Notes: generated by a model not told the origin, from the sequence alone. A stretch of 64,000 nucleotides of DNA from an uncultured Gammaproteobacteria bacterium (GCA_964394855.1 CAYMZD010000002.1:131964-195963), one strand, 5' to 3'; counted from the stretch's first letter, positions 9,096-21,581 are shown. Translations and numbers: made by a program.

Positions 9096-10001
9096 ATGTT
9101 TAAAGTTAAGAAAGAATTAGAAAAAGGAAACTTTGTGAAGTTTGTATTGGAACCTTTAGAGGCTGGTTTTGGTCATACCCTTGGTAACAGTTTAAGGAGG
9201 GTGCTTTTAACTTCTCTAGATGGAGCAGCAGTGACCTCTGTTAGAATAGAGGGGGTGGCACATCAATTTTCCACTATTGCAGGAGTAAGTGAGGATGTGA
9301 CAGAGATTCTTTTGAATATTAAAAAACTTAGAATCAAGCTGCATTCTGATAAACCAATCAAATTAACACTAAAAGTATCAGGTAAGAAAGAAGTTACCGT
9401 CAAAGATATAGAAGTTTTGGGTGACGGAGAAGTAGTTAATCTAGATCAACATATTGCTACTTTAAATAGTGCCAATGCTAAACTCAATATGGAGATGACT
9501 GCAGAAGCTGGCAAGGGTTATTCAATATCAGATGAGCGTAAATTAAATGAAATAGGTCTAATTGCTGTGGATGCGCTTTTTTCTCCAGTGTTAGATGTCA
9601 ATTATAGCATTGAATCAACCCGGGTGGGTAGAAGAACTGACTTAGACAAGCTAATTTTAGAGATTACCACTGATGGTACCATGACACCTCAAGAGTCTTT
9701 AGAAGAGGCAGCCAAAATTCTTTCCCTCTCCTTTAAACAAATCTTCGAGCCTATAGTCGAAGTGGAAGATGATGGTTTAAAAAGCCAAGGTGCAGTTTTT
9801 GATGAGGTTTTAAAGATGAGTGTAGAAGAGATTGACTTACCTGTCCGTATCACCAATGCCCTAAAAGCTATTGATATAAATACTATTGAGGATTTGATAA
9901 AAATGCCAAGAGGACAACTTTTGAAAGCCAAAAACTTAGGTACCAAATCTTTAAGTCTTATTTCAGAAAAACTTTCAGAGAGGGGGTTGTCCCTCCAGTG
10001 A
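9096..10001 (+). CDS. rpoA: DNA-directed RNA polymerase subunit alpha
   Basis: 301 aa, N-terminal dimerisation domain and C-terminal CTD. Confidence 0.9.
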   Translation: MFKVKKELEKGNFVKFVLEPLEAGFGHTLGNSLRRVLLTSLDGAAVTSVRIEGVAHQFSTIAGVSEDVTEILLNIKKLRIKLHSDKPIKLTLKVSGKKEVTVKDIEVLGDGEVVNLDQHIATLNSANAKLNMEMTAEAGKGYSISDERKLNEIGLIAVDALFSPVLDVNYSIESTRVGRRTDLDKLILEITTDGTMTPQESLEEAAKILSLSFKQIFEPIVEVEDDGLKSQGAVFDEVLKMSVEEIDLPVRITNALKAIDINTIEDLIKMPRGQLLKAKNLGTKSLSLISEKLSERGLSLQ

Positions 10002-10420
10002 GGCATAGAGTTTATGGTAGAAAACTTACGAGAAATAAAAATCAAAGAACTGCACTTTTTAAAAATTTAGTGCAAAGTTTAATTTTACACGGTAGTATTA
10101 AAACCACCGAGGCTAAAGTTAAAGCGGTCAAGGGCTTGGTTGATAAAATTATTAACCAAGCAAAAAGTCAAAACAGCAAAGTACAAACTTTTTTAACAAA
10201 CAAAGAAGTTAGGGAAAAACTGCTTAAAGAGATTATTCCCACCTTAAAAAATAGAAACTCTGGCTATACTTCTTTTGTGAGATTGGGCCCCAGAAAAGGA
10301 GATGGAGCTATGATGATGAGGATGTCTTTATTGGTCAACGAAGAAGAAAAGTTAACACCTTCCTTAAAAACTCGTGATGGACGATCTAGTAGAAACAAAA
10401 AACCAAAAACCAAAAAATGA
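9998..10420 (+). CDS. rplQ: 50S ribosomal protein L17
   Basis: 140 aa, MRHRVYGRKL... typical of L17. Confidence 0.85.
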   Translation: MRHRVYGRKLTRNKNQRTALFKNLVQSLILHGSIKTTEAKVKAVKGLVDKIINQAKSQNSKVQTFLTNKEVREKLLKEIIPTLKNRNSGYTSFVRLGPRKGDGAMMMRMSLLVNEEEKLTPSLKTRDGRSSRNKKPKTKK

Positions 10421-10809
10421 GCACGGTCAGATTATCAGCTAAAGATATTAGAAGGGAAAAACATGTCATTGATGCCAATGGTAAAATTTTAGGAAGATTG
10501 GCCACAGAGGTGGCCAGGCTTTTGCAAGGAAAACACAAGACATACTTTGTGCCCTATTTGGATACAGGAGATTTGGTGGTGGTAACCAATGCTGCCAAAG
10601 TAAAAGTTAGTGGTAAAAAAGCAACTGATAAATTCTATATCCGTCATTCAGGATATCCAGGGGGTTTAAAGGAAGAAAGTTTTAACAAGCTCATCAGTAG
10701 AAGACCAGAAGTTATTATTGAACATGCAGTCAAAGGGATGTTGCCTAAAAATAAATTGGGAAGAGCTAGATTTAAAAAATTAAAAGTTTTTGCTGGGGAG
10801 GAAGAATAA
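10417..10809 (+). CDS. rplM: 50S ribosomal protein L13
   Basis: 130 aa L13-like. Confidence 0.85.
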   Translation: MSTVRLSAKDIRREKHVIDANGKILGRLATEVARLLQGKHKTYFVPYLDTGDLVVVTNAAKVKVSGKKATDKFYIRHSGYPGGLKEESFNKLISRRPEVIIEHAVKGMLPKNKLGRARFKKLKVFAGEEE

Positions 10810-11208
10810 GTGGCTAATTCATATAGTGTTTCTGTGGGAAGAAGAAAAGAGTCAGTAGCCAGAGTAAGGCTTTTTTCGGGCAAAGGGGAAACAATTGTTA
10901 ATGGTAAAAAAATTAATGAATATTTTCCAGGAGAAGTGGCTAAAAAAACCTATCTGAAACCCTTTGAGGTTTCCAAAACTCAAGATAAATACTTCGCCAC
11001 TGTCAAAGTTGAAGGTGGGGGAATTTCTTCTCAACTAGGCGCTGTAGTACATGGAATTGCGCGTAGTTTAGCCAAAGCTGATGCGACCCAGTACAGAAAA
11101 CCATTAAAAATAGAGGGGTTGCTGACTCGTGACCCCAGGGCAAAGGAACGACGCAAATATGGTCATGCCCATAAGGCACGGGCTATGAAGCAATCACCCA
11201 AAAGATAA
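10810..11208 (+). CDS. rpsI: 30S ribosomal protein S9 (GTG start)
   Basis: 132 aa, C-terminal ...RKYGHAHKARAMKQSPKR typical of S9. Confidence 0.85.
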   Translation: MANSYSVSVGRRKESVARVRLFSGKGETIVNGKKINEYFPGEVAKKTYLKPFEVSKTQDKYFATVKVEGGGISSQLGAVVHGIARSLAKADATQYRKPLKIEGLLTRDPRAKERRKYGHAHKARAMKQSPKR

Positions 11209-11209
11209 T

Positions 11210-11794
11210 ATGGTAGCAGTGGATCAACCATTTATTGATTTTGAACTGTCTTTTTATGATCCCCAAACTAAAAAAGTGGGGAAAGTTTCACTGAGTAGTA
11301 TTCTCAAAAAAAAGGAGTGGTTTACTCTCTTTTTTTATCCGGCTGATTTTACCTTTGTTTGTCCAACAGAACTGGCAGACTTAGCCAAAAGATATCAAGA
11401 GTTTAAGAATGCAGATTGTCAAATTTATGCTGTTTCCACCGATACAGTTTATACACATAAAGCTTGGCTGGAAAAGGAAAAATTGCTGGAAAATGTTAAA
11501 TACCCGATGCTCTCGGATCATAGTGGAAAATTGTCACAGGAACTTTCAATTTTGGATGATAACGGTATGGCCCAGAGAGCCTATTACATCATTGATCCCA
11601 AAGGGGTGCTGCGAGCCATGCAAGTTGTCAGTGATAATATTGGTAGATCAGCTCAAGAAATTCTAAGACAGGTTAAGGCTTTAAAATATGTATCAGAACA
11701 TCCGGGTTTGGCGTGTCCTGCCAGTTGGGATATTGGTGAAAAAACTCTAAAACCCGATATTGCCATCTCCGGCAAGGTTTTTGAGAAACTGTGA
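11210..11794 (+). CDS. Peroxiredoxin (typical 2-Cys, AhpC/Tsa family)
   Basis: FTFVCPTE peroxidatic Cys motif and C-terminal resolving Cys region. Confidence 0.8.
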   Translation: MVAVDQPFIDFELSFYDPQTKKVGKVSLSSILKKKEWFTLFFYPADFTFVCPTELADLAKRYQEFKNADCQIYAVSTDTVYTHKAWLEKEKLLENVKYPMLSDHSGKLSQELSILDDNGMAQRAYYIIDPKGVLRAMQVVSDNIGRSAQEILRQVKALKYVSEHPGLACPASWDIGEKTLKPDIAISGKVFEKL

Positions 11795-11812: not shown

Positions 11813-12559
11813 ATGGAGATACCTAAAACATTAGATCAATTAAATGAACAGTTAGATGGTTGGTCGGATATGTTAAAAGACCCATTATGGTATCAACAAG
11901 CTATGCCCATACTTTTAGATTGGTGGGAGAATTTCCCCAAGGATGAAACTAGAGAATTATTAAAGGATCGAATTTATCAATATTTTGCGGACAAATTAGA
12001 AAAAGGAGAAATTGTCCTTGGTCGTAAAGGACCAAATTTTGATCAGGAGAGGAAACCTGTTGACACTATCATTATTCATCACAGCAGCAGGAAACCGGGT
12101 GTATCTTGGCAAGAATTATCAGCCATTGGTTTTTTAAGACAATATGTTCATGATTACTATTTATATGATGACGTTTTTGATCAAGATACAAAAGATCAAC
12201 CTATCTGGTCCGGTCATTTTAGAGATGGTATCCAGGTATTTTATGCTTATCACTGGTTGGTTAGGATGAATGGTGAATCAGTTAGGTTGTTGGAGGATCA
12301 CTACTTGGGTTGGCATGCAGGTAATAGAGATGTTAACAGAAGAAGCATAGCTATAGTTTTAGATGGAGATTTTCAAAACAGTGAACCATCCCATCTATCC
12401 TTGGAAGGTGTTGCCAGACTAATGAGGGAACAGTATCCACATATTAAAACTGCCAAAATCTTAGGACATTTAGAAGTAAGTAAAACTGAATGTCCTGGTA
12501 GATTATTTTTACCTGTTTGGAAAAATAAACTACTTTCCAAATTCTTTGAGCCACAATAG
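11813..12559 (+). CDS. N-acetylmuramoyl-L-alanine amidase (Amidase_2/PGRP fold) with N-terminal extra domain
   Basis: IIIHHS...GWHAG...H..ECPG zinc-amidase motif pattern. Confidence 0.6.
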   Translation: MEIPKTLDQLNEQLDGWSDMLKDPLWYQQAMPILLDWWENFPKDETRELLKDRIYQYFADKLEKGEIVLGRKGPNFDQERKPVDTIIIHHSSRKPGVSWQELSAIGFLRQYVHDYYLYDDVFDQDTKDQPIWSGHFRDGIQVFYAYHWLVRMNGESVRLLEDHYLGWHAGNRDVNRRSIAIVLDGDFQNSEPSHLSLEGVARLMREQYPHIKTAKILGHLEVSKTECPGRLFLPVWKNKLLSKFFEPQ

Positions 12560-14162
12560 CATTGAAGTATGATGGATGATAAAATACTAGAGTTACGGGG
12601 TGTAGTTCATCGGTAGAACGCTCGCATGGGGTGCGAGAAGTAGCAGGTTCAATTCCTGTCACCCCGACCAAAAGTGAATCCGCAAGGCTGGCCGGAATTT
12701 GGCTCTGGCTGGGTGGGGTCAGCCAGAGCTCTGCAAAGCCCTGATTATATTTTGGGACAAGCCGCCGATCAGTTAAAAAGAAGTTCGAGCCGACAGTTTT
12801 TGCTCCGATTGCTAAATCGGAGCATGTATTTTTTGCGCGCGCGATTTTTGCGCACGATAGTGCGCTACCAATGAAGTTTTTGAAAGGTTCGAGCCAACTC
12901 GAACCATTTATGTTTATTTGTCCCAATTCTTCATTAATTTTTAATTTTTCTTCGAAAAATTCGTTCTTTTTTGACTTGTAAACTTCGGGTTCAATAATCC
13001 CTTCTAAATATCCATCAAGAAGTTTATTAAGTTTTATATCCATGTCTTTCAGTTCCAACTCCAATTTTTCAATGTTCTCATGAATGGATACAGTTTCTAA
13101 TTTTTTATCTTCCTCTAACCGTTTGTACCAGTCATTAGCCCACTCTTGGGGTAACGCTACATCGTCAATGGCTTTTCTAAATTGGGTTTCTAATTCCGGT
13201 TCTGAAATATATTTTTGAGTGCAAGGTTTTAACTTTTTAGTGCAACGGTAGTAAATATATTCTACAGTTCTATCGGTACCTTTATAATATTTCTTGTGAG
13301 ATTCAGCGGTGATGCTTGCCCCGCACTCTCCGCATTTTATCAAACCCATAAAGGCAAAGTTATATCTTCTTTTTTTGTGTCTGTCTCTAAACTTTAATTC
13401 TTGCTGGACTTTTTGGAATAACTCTTTTGAAATTATTGTTTTATGATTTCCTTCGTGATACTCTCCGTTGTACTCCATAATGCCAACATAAAATCTATTG
13501 GCTAAAATTCTTCTGATTTCGTTTATATGTAATGGCTTATTATTTTTTCTTTTAAGATGAAATTTATGGAGAAACAAAGCAATATCGGTAAATGTTTTGT
13601 TGCCTTCTGCAAATAATTCAAATGCCTTCTTAATTGCTTTTAATTTTTCCGGCTCAACATCTATCCCTCTAGTTTTTGGATTGTTAATATAACCATCAGG
13701 AGCTTTGCCAGGATAAACACCGTTTCGGAGTTTTTGACGTAACCCTCTTTTTACATTTTCCGATAAATTATCCACATAATACTTAGACTGTCCAAAAGCT
13801 ATATTTAACATGAATTTTCCTTGGGGAGTATTTTCAAACCAAGAGGTCGGAAACTTTAGATCAAGCAGTTTTCCGGTATCAAGAAGATAAATTATTTTCC
13901 CGCCATCAATACTATTTCTTGCTAATCGGTCGGGGTGCCAGGCGATAATCCCTCCTATCTGTTGTTTTTCTATCTTCTTTAAAACTTCTGCAAATTTCTC
14001 TCTGCCAGGAACCTTAGCTGTTTTTTCTTCTTCCACAAATTCAGTAATTTCCAAACGTTCTCTTTTTGCGTACTCCTTCAACTCCGCTATTTGAGCAGAG
14101 ATAGATAATATCTGTTTGTCTTTTTCTTCCCGAGATTTTCTGCAATAGGCTATGTATTTCAT
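12444..14162 (-). CDS. Large serine recombinase (resolvase catalytic domain + recombinase domain + zinc ribbon + coiled coil); C-terminal about 107 codons read through IR1, the tRNA and the antisense end of the amidase gene
   Basis: N-terminal YCRKS...Q catalytic motif as in TnpX/Ccr/SpoIVCA-type large serine recombinases, DRLARN region, CGECG...YYRC zinc ribbon, long coiled-coil; no in-frame stop until 12444. Confidence 0.8.
   Translation of the reverse strand: MKYIAYCRKSREEKDKQILSISAQIAELKEYAKRERLEITEFVEEEKTAKVPGREKFAEVLKKIEKQQIGGIIAWHPDRLARNSIDGGKIIYLLDTGKLLDLKFPTSWFENTPQGKFMLNIAFGQSKYYVDNLSENVKRGLRQKLRNGVYPGKAPDGYINNPKTRGIDVEPEKLKAIKKAFELFAEGNKTFTDIALFLHKFHLKRKNNKPLHINEIRRILANRFYVGIMEYNGEYHEGNHKTIISKELFQKVQQELKFRDRHKKRRYNFAFMGLIKCGECGASITAESHKKYYKGTDRTVEYIYYRCTKKLKPCTQKYISEPELETQFRKAIDDVALPQEWANDWYKRLEEDKKLETVSIHENIEKLELELKDMDIKLNKLLDGYLEGIIEPEVYKSKKNEFFEEKLKINEELGQININGSSWLEPFKNFIGSALSCAKIARAKNTCSDLAIGAKTVGSNFFLTDRRLVPKYNQGFAELWLTPPSQSQIPASLADSLLVGVTGIEPATSRTPCERSTDELHPVTLVFYHPSYFNAIVAQRIWKVVYFSKQVKIIYQDIQFYLLLNVLRFWQF
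12596..12670 (+). tRNA. tRNA-Pro (anticodon GGG), CCA encoded
   Basis: Cloverleaf folds by hand: acceptor CGGGGTG/CACCCCG, D stem GTTC/GAAC, anticodon stem CTCGC/GCGAG with loop ATGGGGT (U33, GGG, G37), T arm GCAGG-TTCAATT-CCTGT, discriminator A, CCA. Confidence 0.85.
12665..12767. repeat. IR1 left copy (103 bp), starts inside tRNA-Pro 3' end (CGACCA)
   Basis: Perfect reverse-complement of 14209-14311; contains internal hairpin GCTCTGGCTG-N8-CAGCCAGAGC at 12702-12729. Confidence 0.9.
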
Positions 14163-14208
14163 ACAAGTAAAATTTTTGCGTGTCTTCCCGTTTTTTGTTC
14201 TTTTTAAC

Positions 14209-14395
14209 CGGCGGCTTGTCCCAAAATATAATCAGGGCTTTGCAGAGCTCTGGCTGACCCCACCCAGCCAGAGCCAAATTCCGGCCAGCCTTGCGGATTC
14301 ACTTTTGGTCGAGCTTTACAAAAAAATTCGAACCCGCTTTAAGTCGAATCGGTAGCCCGCCTTCGGCGGGCTTTTGTTCCGCTCGGCCTTCGGCC
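14209..14395. repeat. 187-bp composite repeat block: IR1 right copy (14209-14311) fused to IR2 left copy (14308-14395)
   Basis: Reverse complement equals 21405-21492 joined to 12665-12767 with 4-nt CGAC overlap; includes terminator-like hairpin AGCCCGCC-TTC-GGCGGGCT followed by TTTTGTT. Confidence 0.9.
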
Positions 14396-14659
14396 GAAGC
14401 TCTAAAACTGTCGGCCGAACTCCGCCAAAGGCGGACAAAAAACGCAAAAATTTAATGCACCCCTCGCCAAAGGCGAGGCAAAGAACTTTTCAAAAATTAA
14501 AATGGCCGCTCTGGCGTACTCAAATCCTTGCGAATGTGTCCAAAGCGGCCATTAAAAAACCGAGAGTCAAATTTGAGCACCGTTTTAATATAGCAGGTTA
14601 TAAGAAGTTTTCAACTGAGAGTTTCTGTATCAAAATGCTAAGGTTTTTTTAAACTTTTC

Positions 14660-14899
14660 TTAATGTTCGGTATCTTTTCTCGAAATCGGATCGTTGCTAT
14701 TTATTGTATCTTTGCTTCTAATCTGCCCATGTTGATTTTGAGTAATTAACTCTCCTCCACCATTGTTTTGTAGAACATTTCTTCCGTAATTCTCTGCATC
14801 TCTTTGAGTATCGAAGATACGAGAGGCTCTCTCGGCTCCTTCTTTCTGTGCTTTCCACTGATCACTATCTGGAGATATCCAAATATTTTTACTTGCCAT
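14660..14899 (-). CDS. DUF2188-family small protein (79 aa from internal ATG)
   Basis: MASKNIWISPDSDQWKAQKEGAERASRIFDTQRDAENYGRNV... matches DUF2188 pattern; strong SD AAAGGGGGTGGGG 7 nt upstream of ATG at 14899. Confidence 0.55.
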   Translation of the reverse strand: MASKNIWISPDSDQWKAQKEGAERASRIFDTQRDAENYGRNVLQNNGGGELITQNQHGQIRSKDTINSNDPISRKDTEH

Positions 14900-15833
14900 T
14901 CTTTTCCCCACCCCCTTTAATAAGTTCTTCAATCTTTTTCTTCCAACCGACGCGATGTATTACCCGGGCTTTTTGTAATTTTTCATTCAATATTTCCGCC
15001 TTTGTTTTTTTGGATATCTCTTCCCACAATTCACTGAGCACATAAGTTGCATTACCGTAATACATGCTTTCTAAGACATAGAGCTTGTTTTCTGTAAAGC
15101 CATGCACAATATAACCATGAAATCCTCCAGTCCCGATGGCTCTAAAATCCGGCTTAAGCGCGTTTACGGTTTTCAAACGATAGTAGAGTATTTGCTGATT
15201 TCCCCTTGGCGCACTTTTAACTATTGGCTCTACCTCTTTTCTAAATTTTTCCCATGGCATCTCTCCTTGCGGAAGCACTACCCAGTTGAGTCTTTTTAAA
15301 GGAGTCTTTAGAATTACTTCCAAATTTTCAGTAAAAAATTCACACTCTCCAAAATATTCAAGGAATAAGTTTACAACATGTTTTAAAACTTTATTGTTCT
15401 CTTCTGTTTTTTCTAGTGCTGGTGCAGTTAGTAAAAATATATCTTCCGCATTCAGAGATAGCATAAGCTCAATTGAGGGTGGAGGTATGAAGGAACGAGG
15501 ATATCTTTTGTAAGGAACATCGACAATTTTGGATTGTTCAACTCTATATGGACCATGCCATTCCGTCCAATGCCAATCAATTTGCCTGTAAGCGGTTTCC
15601 ATTGGCGAATCTTTATGTTTAATTATCTTACCTTCTGCATTATACTTACTAATATTTCCAAGCGATGCTGGAAGGATAGATTGTCCTTTTTGATAAGGCT
15701 CTAAAAAACCTAGGCGTTTTAAAGTTGTGGAAAATCTTAAAGGATCAGTAATGCCAATAATAATTTTAGAGCCATTTTGGATATGGCTAATATATGGAGA
15801 TATGTTTCGAATACGCTTTTTCTGTATAATCAT
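14889..15833 (-). CDS. Hypothetical protein (314 aa), no recognisable family
   Basis: Long ORF, divergent from lexA-like gene, co-directional and overlapping by 11 nt with DUF2188 gene. Confidence 0.5.
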   Translation of the reverse strand: MIIQKKRIRNISPYISHIQNGSKIIIGITDPLRFSTTLKRLGFLEPYQKGQSILPASLGNISKYNAEGKIIKHKDSPMETAYRQIDWHWTEWHGPYRVEQSKIVDVPYKRYPRSFIPPPSIELMLSLNAEDIFLLTAPALEKTEENNKVLKHVVNLFLEYFGECEFFTENLEVILKTPLKRLNWVVLPQGEMPWEKFRKEVEPIVKSAPRGNQQILYYRLKTVNALKPDFRAIGTGGFHGYIVHGFTENKLYVLESMYYGNATYVLSELWEEISKKTKAEILNEKLQKARVIHRVGWKKKIEELIKGGGEKNGK

Positions 15834-15912
15834 TTTTATAATAACCGTTTTTCTTAGACAGTAAGAAATCTATACTTGACATTATTATAACAGATGTGGT
15901 AGGATTTACAAG

Positions 15913-15932
15913 GTGGTAAATAATAACCACCT
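15913..15932. promoter_or_regulatory. Inverted repeat GGTGGT-N8-ACCACC immediately upstream of lexA-like start; intergenic region also has three direct copies of ATAATAAC(C)
   Basis: Seen directly; candidate operator or SD-sequestering hairpin in the divergent promoter region 15834-15935. Confidence 0.35.
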
Positions 15933-15935
15933 ATT

Positions 15936-16559
15936 ATGCAATATTTACCCTCAAAAACAGAAAAAGTTTTACAAACTCTTATTCAATTCCAAAACAAAAA
16001 CGGTTACTCTCCTTCGATAACAGAGTTAAAAACTATCGTTGGAAATAAATCCACGCGCGGAATTGTTTTGCAATTAGATAAACTGCAGAAACTGGGTTAT
16101 ATCCAGCGTGAAAAAAACTCGAGGCGGGCAATTAAAATATTACGTAAGCCCATAAAAATTAATAAGGAAACTATGATTAATGTTCCTGTCCTTGGCGAGA
16201 TTAGGGCCGGCTATGGTTCTTTGGCTGAACAAAATATTGAAGGCTATGAAAAGATTCCCCTACTCTTGGCGAAAGGTCAAAGAGATGTCTTCATACTTCG
16301 GGTCAAAGGGACAAGTATGTTAAAAGCGGGCATAAATCCAGGAGATTTAGCCATAATAGCACCACAAAACAACGCTAATAACGGAGACATTGTAATTGCT
16401 TTTGATCCAGATGATGAAACAGCAACGCTAAAAAGATTTAAGCGATTGCAAGATTATGTTATGCTTTTACCAGAAAGCGATGATCCAAGTTATCAGCCTA
16501 AAATCGGAAAACAATTTGTAATACAAGGTAAATTTATAGACTTATTAAGAAAAAACTAA
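15936..16559 (+). CDS. LexA-family repressor (winged-helix DNA-binding domain + S24 peptidase domain)
   Basis: N-terminal LexA DNA-binding domain (GYSPSITELKTIVGNKSTRG...LQKLGYIQRE...RAIKIL), Ala-Gly cleavage site (IRAGYG), catalytic Ser in GTSM and Lys in KRFKR. Confidence 0.75.
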   Translation: MQYLPSKTEKVLQTLIQFQNKNGYSPSITELKTIVGNKSTRGIVLQLDKLQKLGYIQREKNSRRAIKILRKPIKINKETMINVPVLGEIRAGYGSLAEQNIEGYEKIPLLLAKGQRDVFILRVKGTSMLKAGINPGDLAIIAPQNNANNGDIVIAFDPDDETATLKRFKRLQDYVMLLPESDDPSYQPKIGKQFVIQGKFIDLLRKN

Positions 16560-16564
16560 CTCTT

Positions 16565-18463
16565 ATGATTTTTAAACCTGCCATAAATAATTCAAAAAAG
16601 ATTTTCTCAATATACAATTCTCTTTCTTCAAGTGGCTTATCAGATGCTCAAATAATTAGTGCCCTTTTAAATTTGTTGAAGACAAAAAATATTGATAATG
16701 ACCTGACGTTGCTCGTTTTATTTTCTGATCTCTACACAAATCATAATTTAGATTTTATTAGTGTAATAGAATTAATTGGCCTTGCTCACCAAAAAGCTAA
16801 AGAAAAATCCTCCATTTCAGGCACTGATGAAAGAAAACATAATGGGATCTACTATACTAATTATTCCATTGCTAAACGAATAGCCGAAGAAACTCTTTCT
16901 TTTTATGGTAAAGATTTTGATCCTGCCAAAAATAAATTTCTTGAACCCTGTGCCGGAACGGGGATATTTGGGATTGCTTATTTAGATACAATTTTTCAGT
17001 TAGATAAAAAGTATATTTTAAATGCACAAAATATTATAAATAATATGTTTTTTGCTGACATAGACGGAGAAGCTATTGCATTGTTAAAAACAATTATTAA
17101 TCTTTATCTTAAAGCAAAATATTCTGTTAACGCATCAGTACCGGATAAAAATATCTTTATTGGCAACGTCCTATTTAGAAATAATACTGATGGGTCTATA
17201 TCAAAAAATGATCTTACAATTCAATTCAATATAAAAGATGGGTTCGATGTAGTATTAACAAACCCTCCTTACAAATTACTTAAGGCAAATTCAAACAAGT
17301 ATAATGAGGTTACGGACAATTACAAAGATGAGATAACAAAAATATTGGATTTTATTAGAAAACACAATGCTTATAAATTTAATTCAGGTACTTTAAATCT
17401 TTATAAACTTTTTGTTGAAGAAATTCTCGAAAATTATACTAAAAAAGATGGCAAGATAGGATTGCTTATTCCATCTACATTACTTAGTGATAAACAAAGT
17501 TACGAATTAAGAAAAAGAATACTTGAGAATTACTACCTCTCAACAATATATACGATTCCAGAAAAAAATAACTTCTTTTTAGATATTAGCCAAGCATTCT
17601 GTTTTTTTTCCCTAGATAAAAGTAATTCTTCGGGTGAATTAATACTAAAAACAAATGTATCCGATGTGGGAGGGTTTAATAAAGAAAATATATCCGTAAG
17701 CAAAATGCGGATAAGTATGATTTCCACCTTACAGGAAATAATTTCTACCGACAAAATAGGCTGGCAGATCTTAAATAAGATGCACAAAAATAAAAAACTT
17801 AAAGAGATTTCATCTATTACTAATTTAAGAGGCGAACTCGATTTAACTCTGGATAAAAAATTCATCATAAATGAAGGAAGTGAATATAATCTCCTTCGTG
17901 GTAATGGAATAAAGGAGTTTATTTTCAGTAAAGACAATCTATTTGTTGATAATAAATTTATTAACAAATTAAACGGAAAAGCAAAATTTTTATTATCAGA
18001 GAGAATAGTATGCCAACAAATATCAAATATAAATCTTACAAAGAGATTAAAGTTCTCTAAAGTGCCCAAAAATATTGTTTTAGGAAACTCTTGTAATTTC
18101 ATTGTCACAAATTCAGATACTCTATTCTTGGAATCCAATATTAGCCTAGATTATTTACTGGGCGTTCTTAATTCATTTCTCTTAAACTGGCGGTTTCAAT
18201 TAACTAGCTCCAACAATCACATAGGCAACTATGAATTAGACGAACTTCCTTTGGCGATTCCTGACTTAAAACAAAAATCAATAGTAGAGGATTTTGTTGA
18301 TAAACTTGTTGAAGATCCAAACAATAATGAATATAAAGTTAAATTAAATGTTGCAGTATTTGATATATATGGATTAGACCATGAAGAAGCTTTATACATA
18401 TTAGATAAGCATCGAAAAAACGATGTGGCAGAATTAACAGGTAAATATATGCATCAACTATGA
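16565..18463 (+). CDS. N6-adenine DNA methyltransferase, gamma class (motif X - I - IV order), with C-terminal target-recognition region
   Basis: GIYYTNYSIAKRI (motif X), EPCAGTGIFG (motif I), NPPY (motif IV); starts 5 nt after lexA-like stop. Confidence 0.8.
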   Translation: MIFKPAINNSKKIFSIYNSLSSSGLSDAQIISALLNLLKTKNIDNDLTLLVLFSDLYTNHNLDFISVIELIGLAHQKAKEKSSISGTDERKHNGIYYTNYSIAKRIAEETLSFYGKDFDPAKNKFLEPCAGTGIFGIAYLDTIFQLDKKYILNAQNIINNMFFADIDGEAIALLKTIINLYLKAKYSVNASVPDKNIFIGNVLFRNNTDGSISKNDLTIQFNIKDGFDVVLTNPPYKLLKANSNKYNEVTDNYKDEITKILDFIRKHNAYKFNSGTLNLYKLFVEEILENYTKKDGKIGLLIPSTLLSDKQSYELRKRILENYYLSTIYTIPEKNNFFLDISQAFCFFSLDKSNSSGELILKTNVSDVGGFNKENISVSKMRISMISTLQEIISTDKIGWQILNKMHKNKKLKEISSITNLRGELDLTLDKKFIINEGSEYNLLRGNGIKEFIFSKDNLFVDNKFINKLNGKAKFLLSERIVCQQISNINLTKRLKFSKVPKNIVLGNSCNFIVTNSDTLFLESNISLDYLLGVLNSFLLNWRFQLTSSNNHIGNYELDELPLAIPDLKQKSIVEDFVDKLVEDPNNNEYKVKLNVAVFDIYGLDHEEALYILDKHRKNDVAELTGKYMHQL

Positions 18464-19590
18464 TTCATAATCACATAACTTATCCATTGAGTGATCTAGA
18501 TATGCAAATGGTAATAGCCGTGCCACAAGGAGGCAATTGGCGCAATATTCCTCTCGACATTCCTTCAAAAAGACTCGAACAAATCAGAAAATCAGGCGGT
18601 AGAACTACACTGTATGGACGGCTTTCTTGGGATAGTCCAAGCTATACGGTAACTACTTATTTTAATCGTCCCGGAAATGGAACATATGTGCATCCCGAAC
18701 AAAATAGAGTTCTTAGCGCAAGAGAAGCAGCAAGACTACAATCATTTACAGATAGCTTCGTGTTTTCTGGTACAAAAGGAAGCTTGTGTATCCAAATAGG
18801 AAATGCTGTTCCACCATTAATGGCTTATTTTTTAGGTAAACAAATTAAAAAGCAAACAAACACAACTAATGTTGTTGACTTATTTTGTGGTGCAGGTGGT
18901 TTAAGCAAAGGATTTGAATGGGCAGGATATAATATTATTGCTGCAAACGATAACTATAAACAGGCATGCGAAACATATAAAATTAATCACCCACATACTA
19001 TTCTTATTGAAGGAGATATTACTAAAAAGATGGTGAAAGATGCTTTATTCGGAGCTATTAAAGACAAGAAAATAGATATCGTTATTGGAGGTCCTCCTTG
19101 TCAAGGTTTTTCTCATGCAGGGAAGAGGCTAGTAGATGATCCAAGAAATTTTCTTTTCAAAGAATTTGTTGAGATTGTAAAGAAAATAAAACCTAAGGTT
19201 GTTGTATTAGAGAATGTAGAAGGGATTCTAACAATGAATTATGGGAAAAGTTTTGAAAGCATAAAGGAGAGTTTCCGTGAACTAGGGTACAAATTGGATG
19301 GAAGAAAACTACATGCTGTTAAATATGGCGTGCCACAAAAGAGAAAAAGAGTTGTTATGATCGGTGTTTTGGAAGGAGATCCTAGCAAATGTTATCCGGA
19401 AGAGGTAATAAAAAATGAAAATCGATATTTAACTGTTCGGGAAGCAATAGATAATCTACCAGAAATAGTGGTAAATGGTGGTAACCATATTATAAGAAAG
19501 AAAACTAATCCAAAATCTGAATATCAAAAATTCTTAGCAGGCTTAACGGCAATAGAAGATTTTTCAGATTATTTGTCTGCAAGAAGTTAA
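18460..19590 (+). CDS. C5-cytosine DNA methyltransferase with circularly permuted motif order (IX-X then I-IV-VI-VIII)
   Basis: N-terminal SAREAARLQSFTDSF (IX) and QIGNAVPP (X), followed by DLFCGAGG (I), GGPPCQGFS (IV), ENV (VI), QKRKR (VIII), TVREAIDNLP; 4-nt ATGA overlap with upstream MTase. Confidence 0.8.
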   Translation: MIHNHITYPLSDLDMQMVIAVPQGGNWRNIPLDIPSKRLEQIRKSGGRTTLYGRLSWDSPSYTVTTYFNRPGNGTYVHPEQNRVLSAREAARLQSFTDSFVFSGTKGSLCIQIGNAVPPLMAYFLGKQIKKQTNTTNVVDLFCGAGGLSKGFEWAGYNIIAANDNYKQACETYKINHPHTILIEGDITKKMVKDALFGAIKDKKIDIVIGGPPCQGFSHAGKRLVDDPRNFLFKEFVEIVKKIKPKVVVLENVEGILTMNYGKSFESIKESFRELGYKLDGRKLHAVKYGVPQKRKRVVMIGVLEGDPSKCYPEEVIKNENRYLTVREAIDNLPEIVVNGGNHIIRKKTNPKSEYQKFLAGLTAIEDFSDYLSARS

Positions 19591-20756
19591 TAGATAAGTT
19601 TCTGCGATAATTTTTCAGCAACTAATTTAAAAATATTTCTTAGTTCCTCTAAGGCTTCGTTTTCTTTCTCTAATTTTAAATAATTTAGTAATACTTTCAG
19701 TTTTCCACGGATTTCATCGGTCTGCCAATCCTTTAAATGTCGGTTTGTTTTTGAAGAATATTCTAATAGTGATTCAAACGAAATTCTTATATATCTCTTT
19801 GCATTGTTTTTATATTGCTTTTTATTTCCTTCCACCTTAATCATTTCCTTATAGTATCCAGTTTTTGGATCGAAACCATCGAATTTAATAGAATAGTTTG
19901 CGTATTCGGGATGGAGAAAATTTTTAATTAAAAAGTTCTTGTGACCCTTTTGGTAGACTTCTGAAAAAATTGAAAGAACGTAGTGCATGTTTTCTCGCAT
20001 AAGTTTACTTGCCAGTAGAGCATCGGGTTCATTTTTAACATTGTGTTTTATCAAGTCCCATAATGCTTTTGAATGTTCGGAAATTACTTCCTGATTTTTC
20101 TCTTCTTTTATTAAGGCTTGAATATCACCTAATGTCATCCTATTGTTTCTTGCAGAATTGGCGGCTCTCGAAAGTGGCCTAAAACTCGGCCTATGTCTAA
20201 AACCTAATGAAATAGGACCAAGGTGATCAGCGCTTATGTCATTTTTTTGAAACTCTTTCATCAACCAGCTTGCTGCTTTCCAATCTCCATCAGACCAATT
20301 TTCATATGCACGTCTATCCTCGCCATATCTTGAAAGATTGCTTTTATGTCTTCCTTTATCGAATTTACTCCTGCAACAGAGGTTATAACTGTGATAACCA
20401 TCAAGCCTATCGGGAGCATTACTCATTGCTCCTGGACTAAGCCCTCCCTTTTTATTAGGATAAATATAATCAAGTTTCATTGATCTACCACAAATTTGGC
20501 AAGGTTTATCCCCAGTAGGATGAATTGCTCTCGCGGTTTTTGATATCCACGCACCCTCCTTAGGTATTCCAAGTTTTTCTCTCTGCTCATCCCACCATTT
20601 CAACCGGGCTAATCCCATTTCACTACTTCTGGCAACAATCCATCTTATTCCACCATTTTCCTTATACAGAAAAGGCATGCCTCTGTAATTAGGATGATTC
20701 ACAATAAATTTCATGTACTTAATGAAGTTTGGATGCCAAGTCCTTTTAGTTCTCAT
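19587..20756 (-). CDS. Putative restriction endonuclease (Cys-rich, possible HNH-like D-H motif), convergent with the MTase pair
   Basis: CQICG...NLCCRSKF...ADHLGPISLGFRH; stop codons of MTase (19590) and this ORF (19587) overlap; no confident family assignment from sequence alone. Confidence 0.45.
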   Translation of the reverse strand: MRTKRTWHPNFIKYMKFIVNHPNYRGMPFLYKENGGIRWIVARSSEMGLARLKWWDEQREKLGIPKEGAWISKTARAIHPTGDKPCQICGRSMKLDYIYPNKKGGLSPGAMSNAPDRLDGYHSYNLCCRSKFDKGRHKSNLSRYGEDRRAYENWSDGDWKAASWLMKEFQKNDISADHLGPISLGFRHRPSFRPLSRAANSARNNRMTLGDIQALIKEEKNQEVISEHSKALWDLIKHNVKNEPDALLASKLMRENMHYVLSIFSEVYQKGHKNFLIKNFLHPEYANYSIKFDGFDPKTGYYKEMIKVEGNKKQYKNNAKRYIRISFESLLEYSSKTNRHLKDWQTDEIRGKLKVLLNYLKLEKENEALEELRNIFKLVAEKLSQKLIY

Positions 20757-21404
20757 AAAATTTTGACTGCAAAGATTATCGCTAGCAATTATATAGCTTT
20801 TTGCTCCGAAATGCCAGAAAAAATGAATGTTTTTGTTTCTTTTTGGCGGCTCCGCCGCCCCCGCTCGCCTCCTGGGATAATTTCCCTTAAAGGAGGGCTG
20901 CCGTCAGAGAAAATCTCGGAGTTTGGAATTTTCTAAAAACTTTCGGATAGGCAGCCCGACATTCGCGAGCCCCGTGAGAATTACTACATTTTTTTAAAAG
21001 ACGGGGCGAGCCATCGGAATTAGTTGCGCAGTCCCGCCTCGAGGCGGGACAAGCGATAGGAAACAGAAGGGGTACAAATAAGAAAGGCGGGGGCGAAAAG
21101 CGGAATACCCCCGCAACGGCAGGCGATACTAAAACAGAACCAAAGATTACCAGAGACTGTAAAGCGAAAATAGAAAAGCAAAGATATCGGCGAGTCGCCC
21201 CCTAGGGCGACCTCTCGCCCAAAAGCGGGGGTGCCGCTTCCATTATTTTGGGTGGGTGGGTTAATGGGAATTTAGTACAGCCTACATTCTGCATTTTTGT
21301 TTTAAATATTTTTCTGCTAAAATAGGGAGGGTAGGCGGATTATAAATAATAAAAATCGCGCGCATTAAAATACTGAAAGTATTTTGCAAAAAATACTAGA
21401 GCGA

Positions 21405-21492
21405 GGCCGAAGGCCGAGCGGAACAAAAGCCCGCCGAAGGCGGGCTACCGATTCGACTTAAAGCGGGTTCGAATTTTTTTGTAAAGCTCGAC
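21405..21492. repeat. IR2 right copy (88 bp), right boundary of element
   Basis: Perfect reverse-complement of 14308-14395; contains hairpin AGCCCGCC-GAA-GGCGGGCT. Confidence 0.9.
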
Positions 21493-21581
21493 TGAAAGAG
21501 GGTTTCCGTCCGATCAGACCCGGATGTTTTCTAAACTTGACATTTTAGAGTCAATCTTGTTAGTATATAGATACTAAAATC

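What the first reader, a model, noticed from the sequence alone, without database searches (positions are those of the whole stretch)
14209..14395. Internal 187-bp block is an inverted copy of the joined element ends (attP-like), giving nested perfect IRs of 103 bp and 88 bp
Seen in sequence: 12665-12767 is perfectly inverted at 14209-14311, and 14308-14395 is perfectly inverted at 21405-21492. The two halves overlap by CGAC, the same CGAC as the tRNA 3' end. Reverse-complementing 14209-14395 therefore reproduces exactly what a right-end-to-left-end circular junction of the element would look like. The first IR brackets only the recombinase gene (1.44 kb) and the second brackets the cargo (7 kb). 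Each 103-bp copy carries a 10-bp-stem hairpin GCTCTGGCTG-N8-CAGCCAGAGC that could be a crossover core. This suggests either a 2-micron-like flip-flop element (recombinase arc invertible relative to cargo) or an excision intermediate captured internally.
Basis: seen in the sequence. Interest (0 to 1): 0.7.

Follow-up and report, generated by a model that had tools for sequence, protein, structure and literature searches.

The report
Internal inverted attP in a tRNA-targeting recombinase element
The 187-bp block is a second, inverted copy of the attachment site of a mobile element inserted at a tRNA gene, and nearly every member of a large, apparently undescribed family of serine-recombinase elements in Patescibacteria carries the same copy.

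Summary
12665-12767 and 14209-14311 are a perfect 103-nt inverted repeat. 14308-14395 and 21405-21492 are a perfect 88-nt one. They share CGAC, the 3' end of tRNA-Pro.

The locus reads attL (tRNA|A), recombinase, inverted attP (A'|B), cargo, attR (B'|flank). It is neither a one-off nor an assembly artefact. Of 82 related loci with enough upstream sequence, 77 carry the inverted A' arm. 37 nested double repeats were mapped.

New points:
- The B half-site mimics the tRNA T-loop but lies 4-5 bp further from the crossover. That is the known attP/attB offset of large serine integrases.
- The recombinase ORF runs through arm A. Only across an A|B junction does it gain a conserved 11-15-residue tail and a stop, so integration splits the gene.
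- Orientation is fixed: 120 split genes against 10 intact ones, and cargo polarity is 32/32. A free 2-micron-like flip-flop is not supported.
- The arms evolve in concert.
- The hairpin in arm A is conserved but lies 38-65 nt from the crossover.

What the internal copy does is unresolved. My best guess is a recombinase-binding site in the recombinase gene leader that also serves as a spare 3' end. Two conserved structured non-coding modules with no Rfam match flank the cargo.

The parts
12596..12670 (+). tRNA-Pro(GGG), the integration target (attB left half, 'T'). Its last bases (from CGAC, 12665, onward) are supplied by arm A.
   Evidence: ARAGORN; Rfam tRNA 60.7 bits. In related loci a tRNA or tmRNA gene abuts arm A in 120 cases.
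12665..12767 (.). Arm A, outer copy. Together with the tRNA it forms the attL-type site (crossover core CGAC, 12665-12668). On the minus strand it also encodes about the last 35 residues of the recombinase up to the crossover. It contains the conserved hairpin (12702-12729).
   Evidence: With one indel the repeat extends to 12782.
12444..14162 (-). Large serine recombinase ORF (572 aa as it stands). Residues 1 to about 499 are the real protein. From 12664 down to 12444 the frame runs on through the antisense tRNA and the amidase gene, giving a junk tail.
   Evidence: Pfam Resolvase, Recombinase and Zn_ribbon_recom; translation; no stop inside arm A in 36 of 36 loci.
14163..14208 (-). Short leader between arm A' and the recombinase ATG. 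It holds the motif ACGCAAAAATTT (14170-14181), whose inverted twin lies at 14442-14453 on the other side of the att block.
   Evidence: The motif is conserved in alignment A2.
14209..14311 (.). Arm A', the inner inverted copy of arm A: left half of the finding and P'-type half of the internal attP.
   Evidence: Present upstream of the recombinase gene in 77 of 82 related loci, median identity 98.9% to the outer arm.
14308..14395 (.). Arm B, inner copy: right half of the finding and P-type half of the internal attP. It holds the T-loop mimic GTTCGAA (14327-14333, minus strand). On the + strand, continuing the frame of A', it holds the last codons ELYKKIRTRFKSNR, a stop at 14353-14355 and a terminator-like hairpin at 14354-14372.
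14396..14640 (.). 'prox' module, a conserved non-coding backbone next to the internal att block. It includes a pseudoknotted element of about 95 nt (14497-14592) and a promoter-like site on the minus strand (14614-14587) that points towards the att block and the recombinase gene.
   Evidence: No Rfam match.
14660..20756 (.). Cargo genes: DUF2188 protein (14660-14932, -), unknown 314-aa protein (14889-15833, -), LexA-like S24 protein (15936-16559, +), Eco57I/TaqI-type m6A methylase (16565-18463, +), m5C methylase (18460-19590, +), Alw26I-type restriction enzyme (19587-20756, -).
   Evidence: GC content 26-33% against 36-40% in the flanks. Cargo is unrelated between elements.
20830..21275 (+). 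'dist' module, a conserved GC-rich structured element of about 430 nt just inside the distal arm. The likely RNA strand is + in the window, opposite to the recombinase gene.
   Evidence: No Rfam match.
21405..21492 (.). Arm B', the outer copy of arm B. Together with the flank it forms the attR-type site (core CGAC, 21489-21492).
   Evidence: mirror terminator-like hairpin at 21446-21428, minus strand.
21493..21530 (.). Chromosomal flank 'F', the right half of the original attB. Its start, TGAAAG, resembles the CAAAAG of arm A.

Best explanation
The 187-bp block is a complete second attP-type site, in inverted orientation, inside an 8.8-kb integrative element inserted at the 3' end of tRNA-Pro.

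Shown:
- The locus has three sites that share the core CGAC: tRNA|A (attL type), A'|B (attP type, inverted) and B'|flank (attR type).
- This three-site layout is a conserved property of a large family of tRNA- and tmRNA-targeting large serine recombinase (LSR) elements in Patescibacteria.
- Half-site B carries a copy of the tRNA T-loop motif GTTCRA, placed 4-5 bp further from the crossover than in the tRNA. That is how LSRs tell attP from attB.
- attP lies inside the recombinase gene. Arm A encodes about the last 35 residues before the crossover. Arm B encodes a conserved tail of 11-15 residues (x-V/L-Y-E/K-K-I/V/C-R-T-x-F), the stop codon and a terminator-like hairpin.

Inferred:
- The normal cycle uses only the outer sites. 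attL x attR gives a circle in which the gene is intact. The in-gene attP x tRNA attB gives the integrated form, in which the tail is replaced by antisense-tRNA junk.
- The internal copy is not consumed in that cycle. It lies about 40-120 bp upstream of the recombinase start codon, downstream of a conserved promoter-like site in the 'prox' module.
- I think it most likely acts as a cis-acting recombinase-binding site (an operator or lock) in the leader of the recombinase gene. As an inverted spare of the gene's 3' end, it would also allow a rare inversion of the recombinase arc to rebuild the intact gene.
- The inverted orientation is the only stable way to carry a second copy, because a direct copy would delete the gene.
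- Sequence exchange between the copies (gene conversion or an unknown copying step) keeps the arms identical.

Confidence is about 0.9 for what the block is and that it is a conserved family feature, about 0.75 for the split gene, and about 0.35-0.4 for the proposed role of the internal copy. The single figure given (0.6) is a blend of these.
For: Anatomy.

Family-wide architecture:
- 80 genome loci and 80 metagenome loci hold relatives of 46-90% identity.
- 37 nested double repeats were mapped, with cargo of 0.56-8.7 kb.
- 77 of 82 loci carry the inverted A' arm upstream of the recombinase gene, median identity 98.9%.
- The architecture is present in closed genomes (L053 and L055 = CP011210.1; L043 = OZ246414.1).

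Target and insertion:
- A tRNA or tmRNA gene abuts arm A, convergent with the recombinase gene.
- In L047 a whole unit lies between tRNA-Leu and tRNA-Val, which are adjacent in L031, L038 and L043.

attP versus attB:
- GTTCRA is 4-5 bp further from the crossover in B than in the tRNA in 22 of 27 cases, and the other 5 look like errors of the motif-matching pattern.
- PMC11722253 gives this offset as 5 bp, and 4 bp for SPbeta.

Split gene:
- There is no stop codon in arm A in 36 of 36 loci.
- Read across A|B, the same frame gives the ..YEKIRTxF.. tail and a stop after 10-15 codons in 28 of 35 loci; 3 are frameshifted and 4 run on for 19-73 codons.
- 9 of the 120 best database homologues end in this tail; most of the rest that are not truncated end in antisense-tRNA junk.
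- AlphaFold places the crossover in a disordered stretch after the last folded helix.

Fixed polarity: 120 split against 10 intact. The prox and dist modules are never swapped in 32 elements.

Concerted evolution: arms are 35-81% alike between elements and 97-100% alike within an element.

Position of the internal copy: between a conserved -35/-10-like site and the recombinase ATG. Arm B carries the terminator-like hairpin.
Against: - No reads, RNA data or biochemistry are available, so nothing shows that the recombinase binds the internal site or that the promoter-like site is used.
- An operator would need about 50 bp, not about 190 bp of near-identity. The concerted evolution of both arms is therefore not explained by this role and needs an extra assumption (gene conversion).
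- If homologous exchange between the arms is frequent, flipped cargo arcs should also be seen. None was found in 32 elements.
- The tail could be conserved partly because the same DNA is the T-loop mimic. One counter-indication: Arg is encoded by CGA or AGA (the reverse complement of GTTCGAA or GTTCTAA), so the residue is kept while the DNA motif changes.
- The proposed circle has two identical attP sites, yet integrants through the second one are essentially absent. This needs a further assumption: that such integrants keep an intact recombinase gene and are therefore unstable.
Confidence: 0.6

Rival explanations
1. Regulated inversion switch ('resurrection cassette'). The main purpose of the internal block is to pair with the outer arm A so that the recombinase arc (12768-14208) can invert. 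That joins the gene body to A'|B and restores the tailed, active recombinase in the integrated state. The intact enzyme then mobilises the element. Most copies rest in the split state because that state makes no active enzyme.
For: The block contains exactly the missing 3' end, stop codon and terminator in the orientation that an inversion would use. Contigs L083, L086 and L155 show the recombinase 3' end joined through A'|B to the prox module, as a flip of the recombinase arc alone would give. Arms of about 100 bp are long enough for homologous exchange, and they evolve in concert. Many public contigs break exactly at the arms, as a mixed population would cause.
Against: Only 3-5 candidates in about 130 resolved loci, all short contigs broken at the arms. 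An assembler's arbitrary choice at a repeat, or arrays such as L125 and L082, could give the same picture. Large serine integrases are not known to recombine attL with attP (my own knowledge of the phiC31 work). Elements descended from a flipped copy would carry the dist module next to the internal site, and 0 of 32 do. AlphaFold suggests the tail-less protein keeps all folded domains, so it need not be inactive.
Confidence: 0.25
2. 2-micron-like flip-flop. The recombinase inverts both arcs freely, so both orientations of the recombinase arc and of the cargo arc coexist, perhaps serving copy-number amplification of a circular form.
For: Formal resemblance: the excised circle would carry two inverted 187-bp repeats, each holding a recombination site, separating two unique arcs of which one encodes the recombinase. 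L085 looks like a permutation of such a circle.
Against: The recombinase 3' end faces the tRNA in 120 loci against 10 with an intact gene. Several of the 10 are arrays or nested insertions rather than flips (L081, L100). The prox and dist modules keep the same places in 32 of 32 elements. No replication gene is conserved. No relatives were found in the viral contig collection.
Confidence: 0.05
3. A one-off rearrangement: an excision intermediate, or a second copy of the element, captured inside this particular copy.
For: The block equals the circular junction. Nested and tandem insertions of related elements do occur (L081, L100).
Against: The same block, with arms matching each element's own ends, is present in 77 of 82 loci from many lineages. 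A single capture event cannot explain arms that differ between elements and match within them.
Confidence: 0.01
4. Assembly artefact: a fold-back or mis-join at a repeat in a metagenome assembly.
For: Inverted repeats are a classic source of assembly errors, and many related contigs end at the arms.
Against: The same structure occurs in assemblies from different projects and assemblers (MEGAHIT k141 and k127, SPAdes) and in closed chromosomes (CP011210.1, OZ246414.1). In older copies the arms differ by 1-12%, which a path traversed twice cannot give. The structure also makes functional sense: reading frame, terminator-like hairpin and half-site spacing.
Confidence: 0.01
5. Two independent transposons with terminal inverted repeats that happen to abut: a recombinase unit with 103-bp ends and a non-autonomous cargo unit with 88-bp ends.
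For: Each arc is bounded by its own inverted repeat. Recombinase units flanked only by tRNA genes exist (L040).
Against: The two repeats always abut and share the crossover core (overlap of 1-15 bp in 35 of the 37 mapped cases; the two with small gaps are contig-edge cases). Arm A is coding sequence and arm B completes that reading frame. The core is part of the inverted repeat rather than a direct target duplication. The half-sites follow attP/attB logic.
Confidence: 0.03

Closest known systems
Large serine integrases of phages and integrative elements (phiC31, Bxb1, A118/LI, SPbeta SprA)
   Same: Same domain set (Resolvase, Recombinase, zinc ribbon with a long coiled-coil insert). Very short identity between attP and attB. 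The outer DNA-binding motif lies 4-5 bp further out in attP half-sites than in attB half-sites.
   Different: The target is the 3' end of many different tRNA/tmRNA genes, and attP mimics the T-loop. attP lies inside the recombinase ORF. The integrated element keeps a second, inverted attP. No conserved candidate directionality factor gene is present.
SSV1-type 'suicidal' tyrosine integrases of archaeal viruses and plasmids
   Same: The attachment site lies within the integrase gene, so integration splits the gene. Targets are tRNA genes (PMC8371274).
   Different: A different enzyme family (tyrosine, not serine). In SSV1-type elements the gene is fragmented; here only a disordered C-terminal tail is removed. 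There is no internal spare copy of the site.
Yeast 2-micron plasmid (Flp/FRT in 599-bp inverted repeats)
   Same: If excised, the circle would have two long inverted repeats, each holding a recombination site, dividing it into two unique arcs, one of which encodes the recombinase.
   Different: Flp is a tyrosine recombinase. The 2-micron plasmid exists as two isomers in equal amounts (my own knowledge). Here the orientation is fixed, the element is chromosomal, and there is no replication module.
Tn3/gamma-delta res site
   Same: A serine recombinase binding site placed between the recombinase gene and its neighbours, serving both as recombination site and as operator (my own knowledge). This is the model for the proposed regulatory role of the internal block.
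   Different: res is a three-subsite resolution site for a small resolvase. It is not a copy of the element ends and does not overlap coding sequence.
SCCmec/ccrAB and Tn4451/Tn5397 (TnpX, TndX)
   Same: Large serine recombinases that excise and insert cargo-carrying elements without a known separate directionality factor. Arrays build up at one target site (my own knowledge; compare L081 and L100).
   Different: Those elements have direct repeats at their ends, and no internal inverted attP and no att site within the recombinase ORF are described for them (my own knowledge, not tested here). Their targets are rlmH or short GA-containing sites, not tRNA T-arms.

Membership tests
Large serine recombinase (integrase) family | N-terminal resolvase-type catalytic domain with the nucleophilic serine | tested here: met
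   PF00239, E=4e-22, residues 4-149. R8 and S10 are invariant in 55 homologues.
Large serine recombinase (integrase) family | Recombinase domain, zinc-ribbon domain and inserted coiled-coil | tested here: met
   PF07508 and PF13408. The AlphaFold model of homologue P0066 has long paired helices at 339-386 and 392-419 after the zinc ribbon.
Large serine recombinase (integrase) family | attP and attB half-sites share motifs but differ by about 5 bp in the position of the outer motif | tested here: met
   GTTCRA is 4-5 bp further from the crossover in B than in the tRNA in 22 of 27 elements. Literature values are 5 bp, and 4 bp for SPbeta.
Large serine recombinase (integrase) family | A separate recombination directionality factor controls excision | tested here: not met
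   No gene other than the recombinase gene is conserved. Small elements carry one unrelated gene each. A small or distant factor cannot be excluded.
Large serine recombinase (integrase) family | Catalyses attP x attB recombination with a 2-bp staggered crossover | not testable with these tools
   Only inferred, from junction sequences and the empty-site comparison.
2-micron-like flip-flop element | Both orientations of the unique arcs coexist at comparable frequency | tested here: not met
   120 split against 10 intact genes. Cargo polarity is 32 of 32. This is tested across assemblies, not within one population.
2-micron-like flip-flop element | Recombination sites lie inside long inverted repeats on an autonomously replicating circle | tested here: inconclusive
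   The sites do lie in inverted repeats. One contig (L085) fits a circle permutation. No replication gene was found.
Hin/Gin-type invertible switch | Small serine invertase with short (about 26 bp) sites and an enhancer, switching expression of flanking genes | tested here: not met
   The enzyme is a large serine recombinase. The sites are att-type hybrids with a tRNA. No alternative gene ends are offered, because both arms are identical.
'Suicidal' (SSV-type) integrase elements | Attachment site inside the integrase ORF, so that integration splits the gene | tested here: met
'Suicidal' (SSV-type) integrase elements | Tyrosine recombinase of the SSV1 type | tested here: not met
   Serine recombinase domains only. 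The resemblance is in design, not descent.

The most novel reading that the evidence does not exclude
These elements are a previously undescribed class of bacterial 'suicidal' serine-integrase cassettes with built-in, factor-free control of direction. Integration at the tRNA removes a conserved C-terminal peptide from the recombinase. The internal inverted attP/3'-end cassette serves as the operator and, through inversion of the recombinase arc or the arrival of a neighbouring element, as the means to restore the tailed enzyme. Two new structured RNAs (the prox pseudoknot and the 430-nt dist RNA) take part in the control. The T-loop-reading specificity would make the family a source of integrases aimed at tRNA genes.
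Probability: 0.25. Interest if true: 0.85.

Novelty: new variant of a known kind. Interest (0 to 1): 0.72.

Why it matters
Large serine integrases are leading tools for inserting DNA. Their direction is normally set by a separate protein, and known examples rarely target tRNA genes. This family is abundant: more than 7,700 homologues at E<=1e-30 in one search.

- It reads the universally conserved tRNA T-arm.
- Its attachment site lies inside the recombinase gene.
- It keeps an intact second attP after integration.

If the C-terminal tail or the internal site controls direction, that would be a new and very compact way to regulate a serine integrase.

The family also explains two practical nuisances. 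Patescibacteria assemblies often break next to these genes. Public protein databases are full of recombinases with antisense-tRNA tails.

It also shows how small-genome CPR bacteria exchange single accessory genes and restriction-modification systems. The two structured non-coding modules are new candidates for functional RNAs tied to a recombinase.

Tried and rejected
1. Palindromic central dinucleotide. CG within CGAC would make the sites non-polar. Rejected as a general rule: aligned on the B motif, the cores in other elements are CC, CA, CT and GA.
2. RNA panhandle. I asked whether the two A arms are kept complementary in the recombinase mRNA. At the 152 positions where the arms differ, G.U and A.C pairs are equal (38 against 38), so there is no sign of RNA-level selection.
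3. A gradient of arm identity away from the crossover, expected if broken sites were repaired from the other copy. Differences are flat at 2.5-4.6% over 0-75 nt and rise only at the fuzzy distal ends. Uninformative.
4. A single-stranded circular intermediate whose paired arms would form one double-stranded attP. Worked through on paper. With a serine recombinase it would cut the chromosome into hairpin-capped ends and would predict the opposite arc orientation. Dropped.
5. Transfer through the internal attP via a cointegrate. It predicts new copies with the dist module next to the internal site. None was seen.
6. A conserved partner or directionality gene in the cargo. None found.
7. Exact-protein look-up of the window's 572-aa ORF: not on record.
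8. Viral contig collection: no relatives.
9. Rfam search for both non-coding modules: only chance-level hits.
10. Literature searches for this architecture: nothing found.
11. An empty attB site for this window's own tRNA-Pro was not found. Synteny with L004, L005, L009 and L016 instead showed an unexplained inversion of the tRNA-plus-element block.

Full report
**1. The observation**

The repeats are exactly as described.
- 12665-12767 and 14209-14311 are 103 nt and 100% complementary.
- 14308-14395 and 21405-21492 are a perfect 88-nt pair. extends this to 94 nt at 98%, because the flank after 21492 (TGAAAG) resembles the start of arm A (CAAAAG).
- The two repeats overlap by GTCG at 14308-14311.
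- tRNA-Pro(GGG) lies at 12596-12670. CGAC at 12665-12668 is the end of its acceptor stem, the discriminator and the first C of CCA.
- No other long repeat and no second recombinase exist in the 64-kb window.

I name the half-sites as follows: T is the tRNA side, A and B are the two arms, and F is the right flank. The three sites are then T|A (12665), A'|B (14308, inverted) and B'|F (21489). In integrase terms these are attL, an inverted attP and attR.

**2. What lies between the repeats**

The 1.44-kb arc encodes a large serine recombinase (LSR) with Resolvase, Recombinase and zinc-ribbon domains. The 7-kb arc carries low-GC cargo:
- an Alw26I-type restriction enzyme;
- an m6A and an m5C methylase;
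- a LexA-like protein;
- a DUF2188 protein;
- one unknown protein.

**3. The layout is a family trait**

Searching genomes and metagenomes with the recombinase gave 160 related loci (46-90% identity), nearly all titled Patescibacteria or related candidate lineages (some titles read Gammaproteobacteria or Actinomycetota).
- Self-comparison shows the same nested pair of inverted repeats again and again. I mapped 37 complete cases among the first 80 loci plus the window. Cargo ranges from 556 bp to 8.7 kb, and the two repeats overlap by 1-15 bp in 35 of them.
- Of 82 loci with the split gene and at least 900 nt upstream, 77 have the inverted A' arm. Its median distance from the start codon is 97 nt, its median identity to the outer arm is 98.9%, and 35 copies are perfect.
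- Loci that seemed to have only the A repeat still carry the B half next to A'. In L010 the distal end simply lies 9.6 kb away.
- The structure is present in closed chromosomes (CP011210.1, OZ246414.1) and in assemblies made with different programs.
- In older copies the arms differ by up to 12%.

An assembly artefact and a one-off capture are therefore excluded.

**4. Target and insertion**

In 120 loci a tRNA gene (Pro, Gln, Glu, Leu, Gly, Phe, Val, Lys, Trp or Ser), or once a tmRNA gene, lies convergent with the recombinase gene, and its 3' end abuts arm A.

In L047 a 2.8-kb unit sits between tRNA-Leu(gag) and tRNA-Val. These two genes are separated by only 3-24 nt in L031 and L038 (about 150 nt in L043). 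The join is exactly after GCAC at the end of tRNA-Leu. The whole unit, cargo included, is therefore the insertion.

**5. The sites follow large-serine-integrase logic**

Half-site B is conserved across the family as GTTCGAA, then a T-rich stretch, GTAAA, 3-4 nt and the core. GTTCGAA copies the tRNA T-loop.
- In 22 of 27 elements this motif lies 4 or 5 bp further from the crossover in B than the real T-loop does in the tRNA. The other five look like errors of the motif-matching pattern.
- This is the published distinction between attP and attB half-sites: the outer DNA-binding domain sits 5 bp (4 bp in SPbeta) closer to the centre in attB (PMC11722253).
- The shared core varies with the tRNA (CC, CA, GA, CT and others). 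It sits at the acceptor-stem end and the discriminator.

The internal block is thus a true P-type/P-type site. The hairpin in arm A is not the crossover.

That hairpin is nevertheless conserved. Five of its six consensus pairs show compensatory changes, for example GGCTG/CAGCC against GCGCG/CGCGC. It lies 38-65 nt from the core, and its role is unknown.

**6. attP lies inside the recombinase gene**

- In 36 of 36 loci the recombinase frame has no stop inside arm A. The crossover falls at about codon 500. In the integrated state the frame runs on into antisense tRNA for a variable distance. In the window this adds 72 junk residues after the crossover.
- Read across an A|B junction, the same frame continues with a conserved tail (x-V/L-Y-E/K-K-I/V/C-R-T-x-F) and stops within 10-15 codons in 28 of 35 loci, giving about 511-515 aa. 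Three are frameshifted and four run on for 19-73 codons. In the window the tail is ELYKKIRTRFKSNR, with the stop at 14353-14355.
- A terminator-like hairpin follows at once, at 14354-14372. Its mirror copy is at 21446-21428.
- The conserved DNA of half-site B is, on the other strand, the coding sequence of YEKIRT. Arg is encoded by CGA or by AGA in different elements, which argues for selection on the protein as well as on the DNA.
- Of the 120 best database homologues, 9 end with this tail; most of the rest that are not truncated end in antisense-tRNA peptides such as GIEPATSRT.
- AlphaFold on an intact homologue (mean pLDDT 77) folds confidently up to residue 485. The last 26 residues are disordered.

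Integration therefore removes a tethered short peptide, not a folded domain. Arm A encodes the last beta-strand, the last helix and the linker.

**7. Orientation is fixed**

Across 167 loci, 120 have the split gene facing the tRNA, 10 have the intact tail, 27 are unclear and 14 are cut by a contig end.

Two conserved non-coding modules mark the cargo ends and never swap in 32 elements. 'prox' lies next to the internal block and 'dist' lies next to the outer B' arm. A 2-micron-like equilibrium is therefore not supported.

The 10 intact cases are a mixed group:
- L100 is a tandem array at tRNA-Lys. The inner recombinase regains a tail from its neighbour's B arm.
- L081 is best read as one element inserted into the internal attP of another.
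- L085 has the order recombinase, A'|B, dist, cargo, prox, which fits a permutation of the excised circle.
- L125 and L082 have diverged A|B-prox blocks on both sides of the recombinase gene.
- L083, L086 and L155 have the recombinase 3' end joined to prox, as a flip of the recombinase arc alone would give. All three are short contigs broken at the arms.
- L040 has a recombinase gene between two convergent tRNA-Glu genes. That is the product expected if the internal attP recombined with a second tRNA gene.

**8. Concerted evolution**

Between related elements the A arms are 58-81% identical and the B arms 35-77%. Within each element they are 97-100% identical.
- The differences that do exist look neutral: 2.1% overall, with G.U and A.C pairs equal.
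- They are evenly spread over the first 75 nt.
- Conservative site-specific recombination cannot copy sequence.

Some gene conversion or copying step is therefore required. I could not identify it, and any model must account for it.

**9. How it most likely works**

The simplest cycle consistent with the fixed polarity has two steps.
- attL x attR gives a circle in which the recombinase gene is intact across the new B'|A junction, followed by dist.
- That in-gene attP then recombines with a tRNA attB, which regenerates the observed layout.

The internal block is not used in this cycle, yet it is conserved and kept identical to the ends, so it must do something else.

Its position is constant. 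It sits in the leader of the recombinase gene, downstream of a conserved promoter-like site in prox. In the window this is TTGAAA, 16 nt, TATATT on the minus strand (14614-14587). Across the family it reads TTGTnT, 17 nt, TATATT.

I therefore favour a cis-acting recombinase-binding site, an operator or lock, by analogy with res of Tn3. Its content also makes it a spare 3' end, which an inversion or a neighbouring insertion can join to the gene body. I put this role at about 0.35-0.4. The pure inversion-switch version stands at about 0.25.

Because the tail-less protein keeps all folded domains, the tail may set direction rather than activity. Integration would then be a switch of protein form, replacing the missing directionality factor. 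This is inference only.

**10. Comparison with known systems, and novelty**

- The enzyme is a member of the large serine recombinase family. Domains and half-site spacing were tested and met.
- The design resembles archaeal 'suicidal' SSV-type integrases in having the att site inside the gene (PMC8371274). Formally it also resembles the 2-micron plasmid.
- It is not a member of either family. The enzyme class differs, and the flip-flop test was not met.

Full-text searches found no description of tRNA-targeting LSR elements with an internal inverted attP. The large LSR survey does not mention tRNA targets or Patescibacteria. I rate it a new variant of a known kind.

**11. Side findings**

prox module:
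- It contains a pseudoknotted element of about 95 nt (window 14497-14592).
- 96.9% of cells are paired, and 12 of 21 pairs show changes on both sides. None of 500 shuffles reaches these values, and slid controls give 24-41%.
- A third helix changes completely between subfamilies yet stays complementary.

dist module:
- It is a GC-rich structured element of about 430 nt, found in 26 loci, always at the same place and on the same strand.
- Folding energy, the G.U to A.C balance and invariant G.U pairs in the closing helix point to the strand opposite the recombinase gene.

Neither module matches Rfam.

Noticed in passing
window 14497-14592 (within the prox module, 14396-14640); same place in L036, L037, L038, L041, L047, L050-L052, L055, L062, L069, L070 and others: A conserved pseudoknotted element of about 95 nt next to the internal att block. 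It has three covarying helices: AATGGCCGCTCTGG/CCAAAGCGGCCATT, GTACTCAA/TTGAGTAC, and a variable third helix. There are no G-U pairs at all. An invariant TATATT (-10-like) follows on the opposite strand. No Rfam match. It may be the 5' leader of the recombinase transcript.
   Followed up: partly
window 20830-21275 (+ strand); 26 related loci, e.g. L012 2072-2263, L054 4308-4499, L004 5100-5338: A GC-rich structured element of about 430 nt (rec-sense 5' ACCCACCCACCCA ... GGGCGGGGGCGGCGGA), always just inside the distal arm B'. 15 of 41 predicted pairs show compensatory changes. Invariant G-U pairs and the folding energy favour the strand opposite the recombinase gene. No Rfam match. A candidate new large RNA tied to these elements.
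   Followed up: partly
window 14170-14181 (-) and 14442-14453 (+): The motif ACGCAAAAATTT occurs as an inverted pair flanking the 187-bp att block. One copy lies 9-30 nt upstream of the recombinase ATG and the other at the start of prox. It is conserved across the family (alignment A2). Whether it is a promoter part, a bend or a protein-binding site is unknown.
   Followed up: no
window 9212-11210 and 22889-23764 compared with L004, L005, L009 and L016: Relative to the homologous flanking genes, the block [tRNA-Pro + element] is inverted in this window compared with four other genomes that carry related elements at tRNA-Pro(GGG). I cannot tell whether the tRNA gene was already inverted or the element caused the inversion.
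   Followed up: no
L040 9796-11582; L081 6467-11542; L100 286-6027; L125 9580-11699: Rearranged relatives. A recombinase gene lies between two convergent tRNA-Glu genes (L040). One element is inserted into the internal attP of another (L081). In a tandem array at tRNA-Lys, the inner recombinase regains an intact tail from its neighbour's B arm (L100). A recombinase gene is flanked by diverged A|B-prox blocks on both sides (L125, L082). Resident att sites are evidently reused as targets.
   Followed up: partly
window 12444-12664 (-); database proteins P0001-P0120: Gene callers extend these recombinases through the attachment site into antisense tRNA. Public databases therefore hold thousands of recombinase entries with spurious C-termini such as ...GIEPATSRTPCERSTDELHP. 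In this window the false extension also overlaps the amidase gene (11813-12559).
   Followed up: yes
related loci L001, L002, L005, L006, L008, L016-L018, L022, L033, L039, L042, L056, L085, L086: Many public contigs end inside or right at the A or B arms. The repeats, or mixed populations, seem to be a recurrent cause of breaks in Patescibacteria assemblies.
   Followed up: no
window 15936-20756: The cargo is a restriction-modification system with an Alw26I-type enzyme, one m6A and one m5C methylase, preceded by a LexA-like S24 protein that may be its controller. The m5C methylase has its C-terminal motifs (GNAVPP) ahead of motif I (DLFCGAGG), so it looks circularly permuted.
   Followed up: no
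L046 9508-9996, L047 9486-9998, L053 9583-9999: Some elements carry an extra unrelated gene (a membrane protein, a P-loop kinase-like protein) between arm A' and the recombinase gene. The recombinase arc is thus a second cargo slot.
   Followed up: no
proteins P0010, P0011, P0013, P0014, P0026, P0040, P0053, P0108 (817-894 aa); L084 3958-6411: Double-length recombinase-like proteins with two sets of Recombinase and zinc-ribbon domains. They look like read-through fusions of adjacent or nested elements. In L084 an IS110-family transposase gene lies upstream in the same contig.
   Followed up: no
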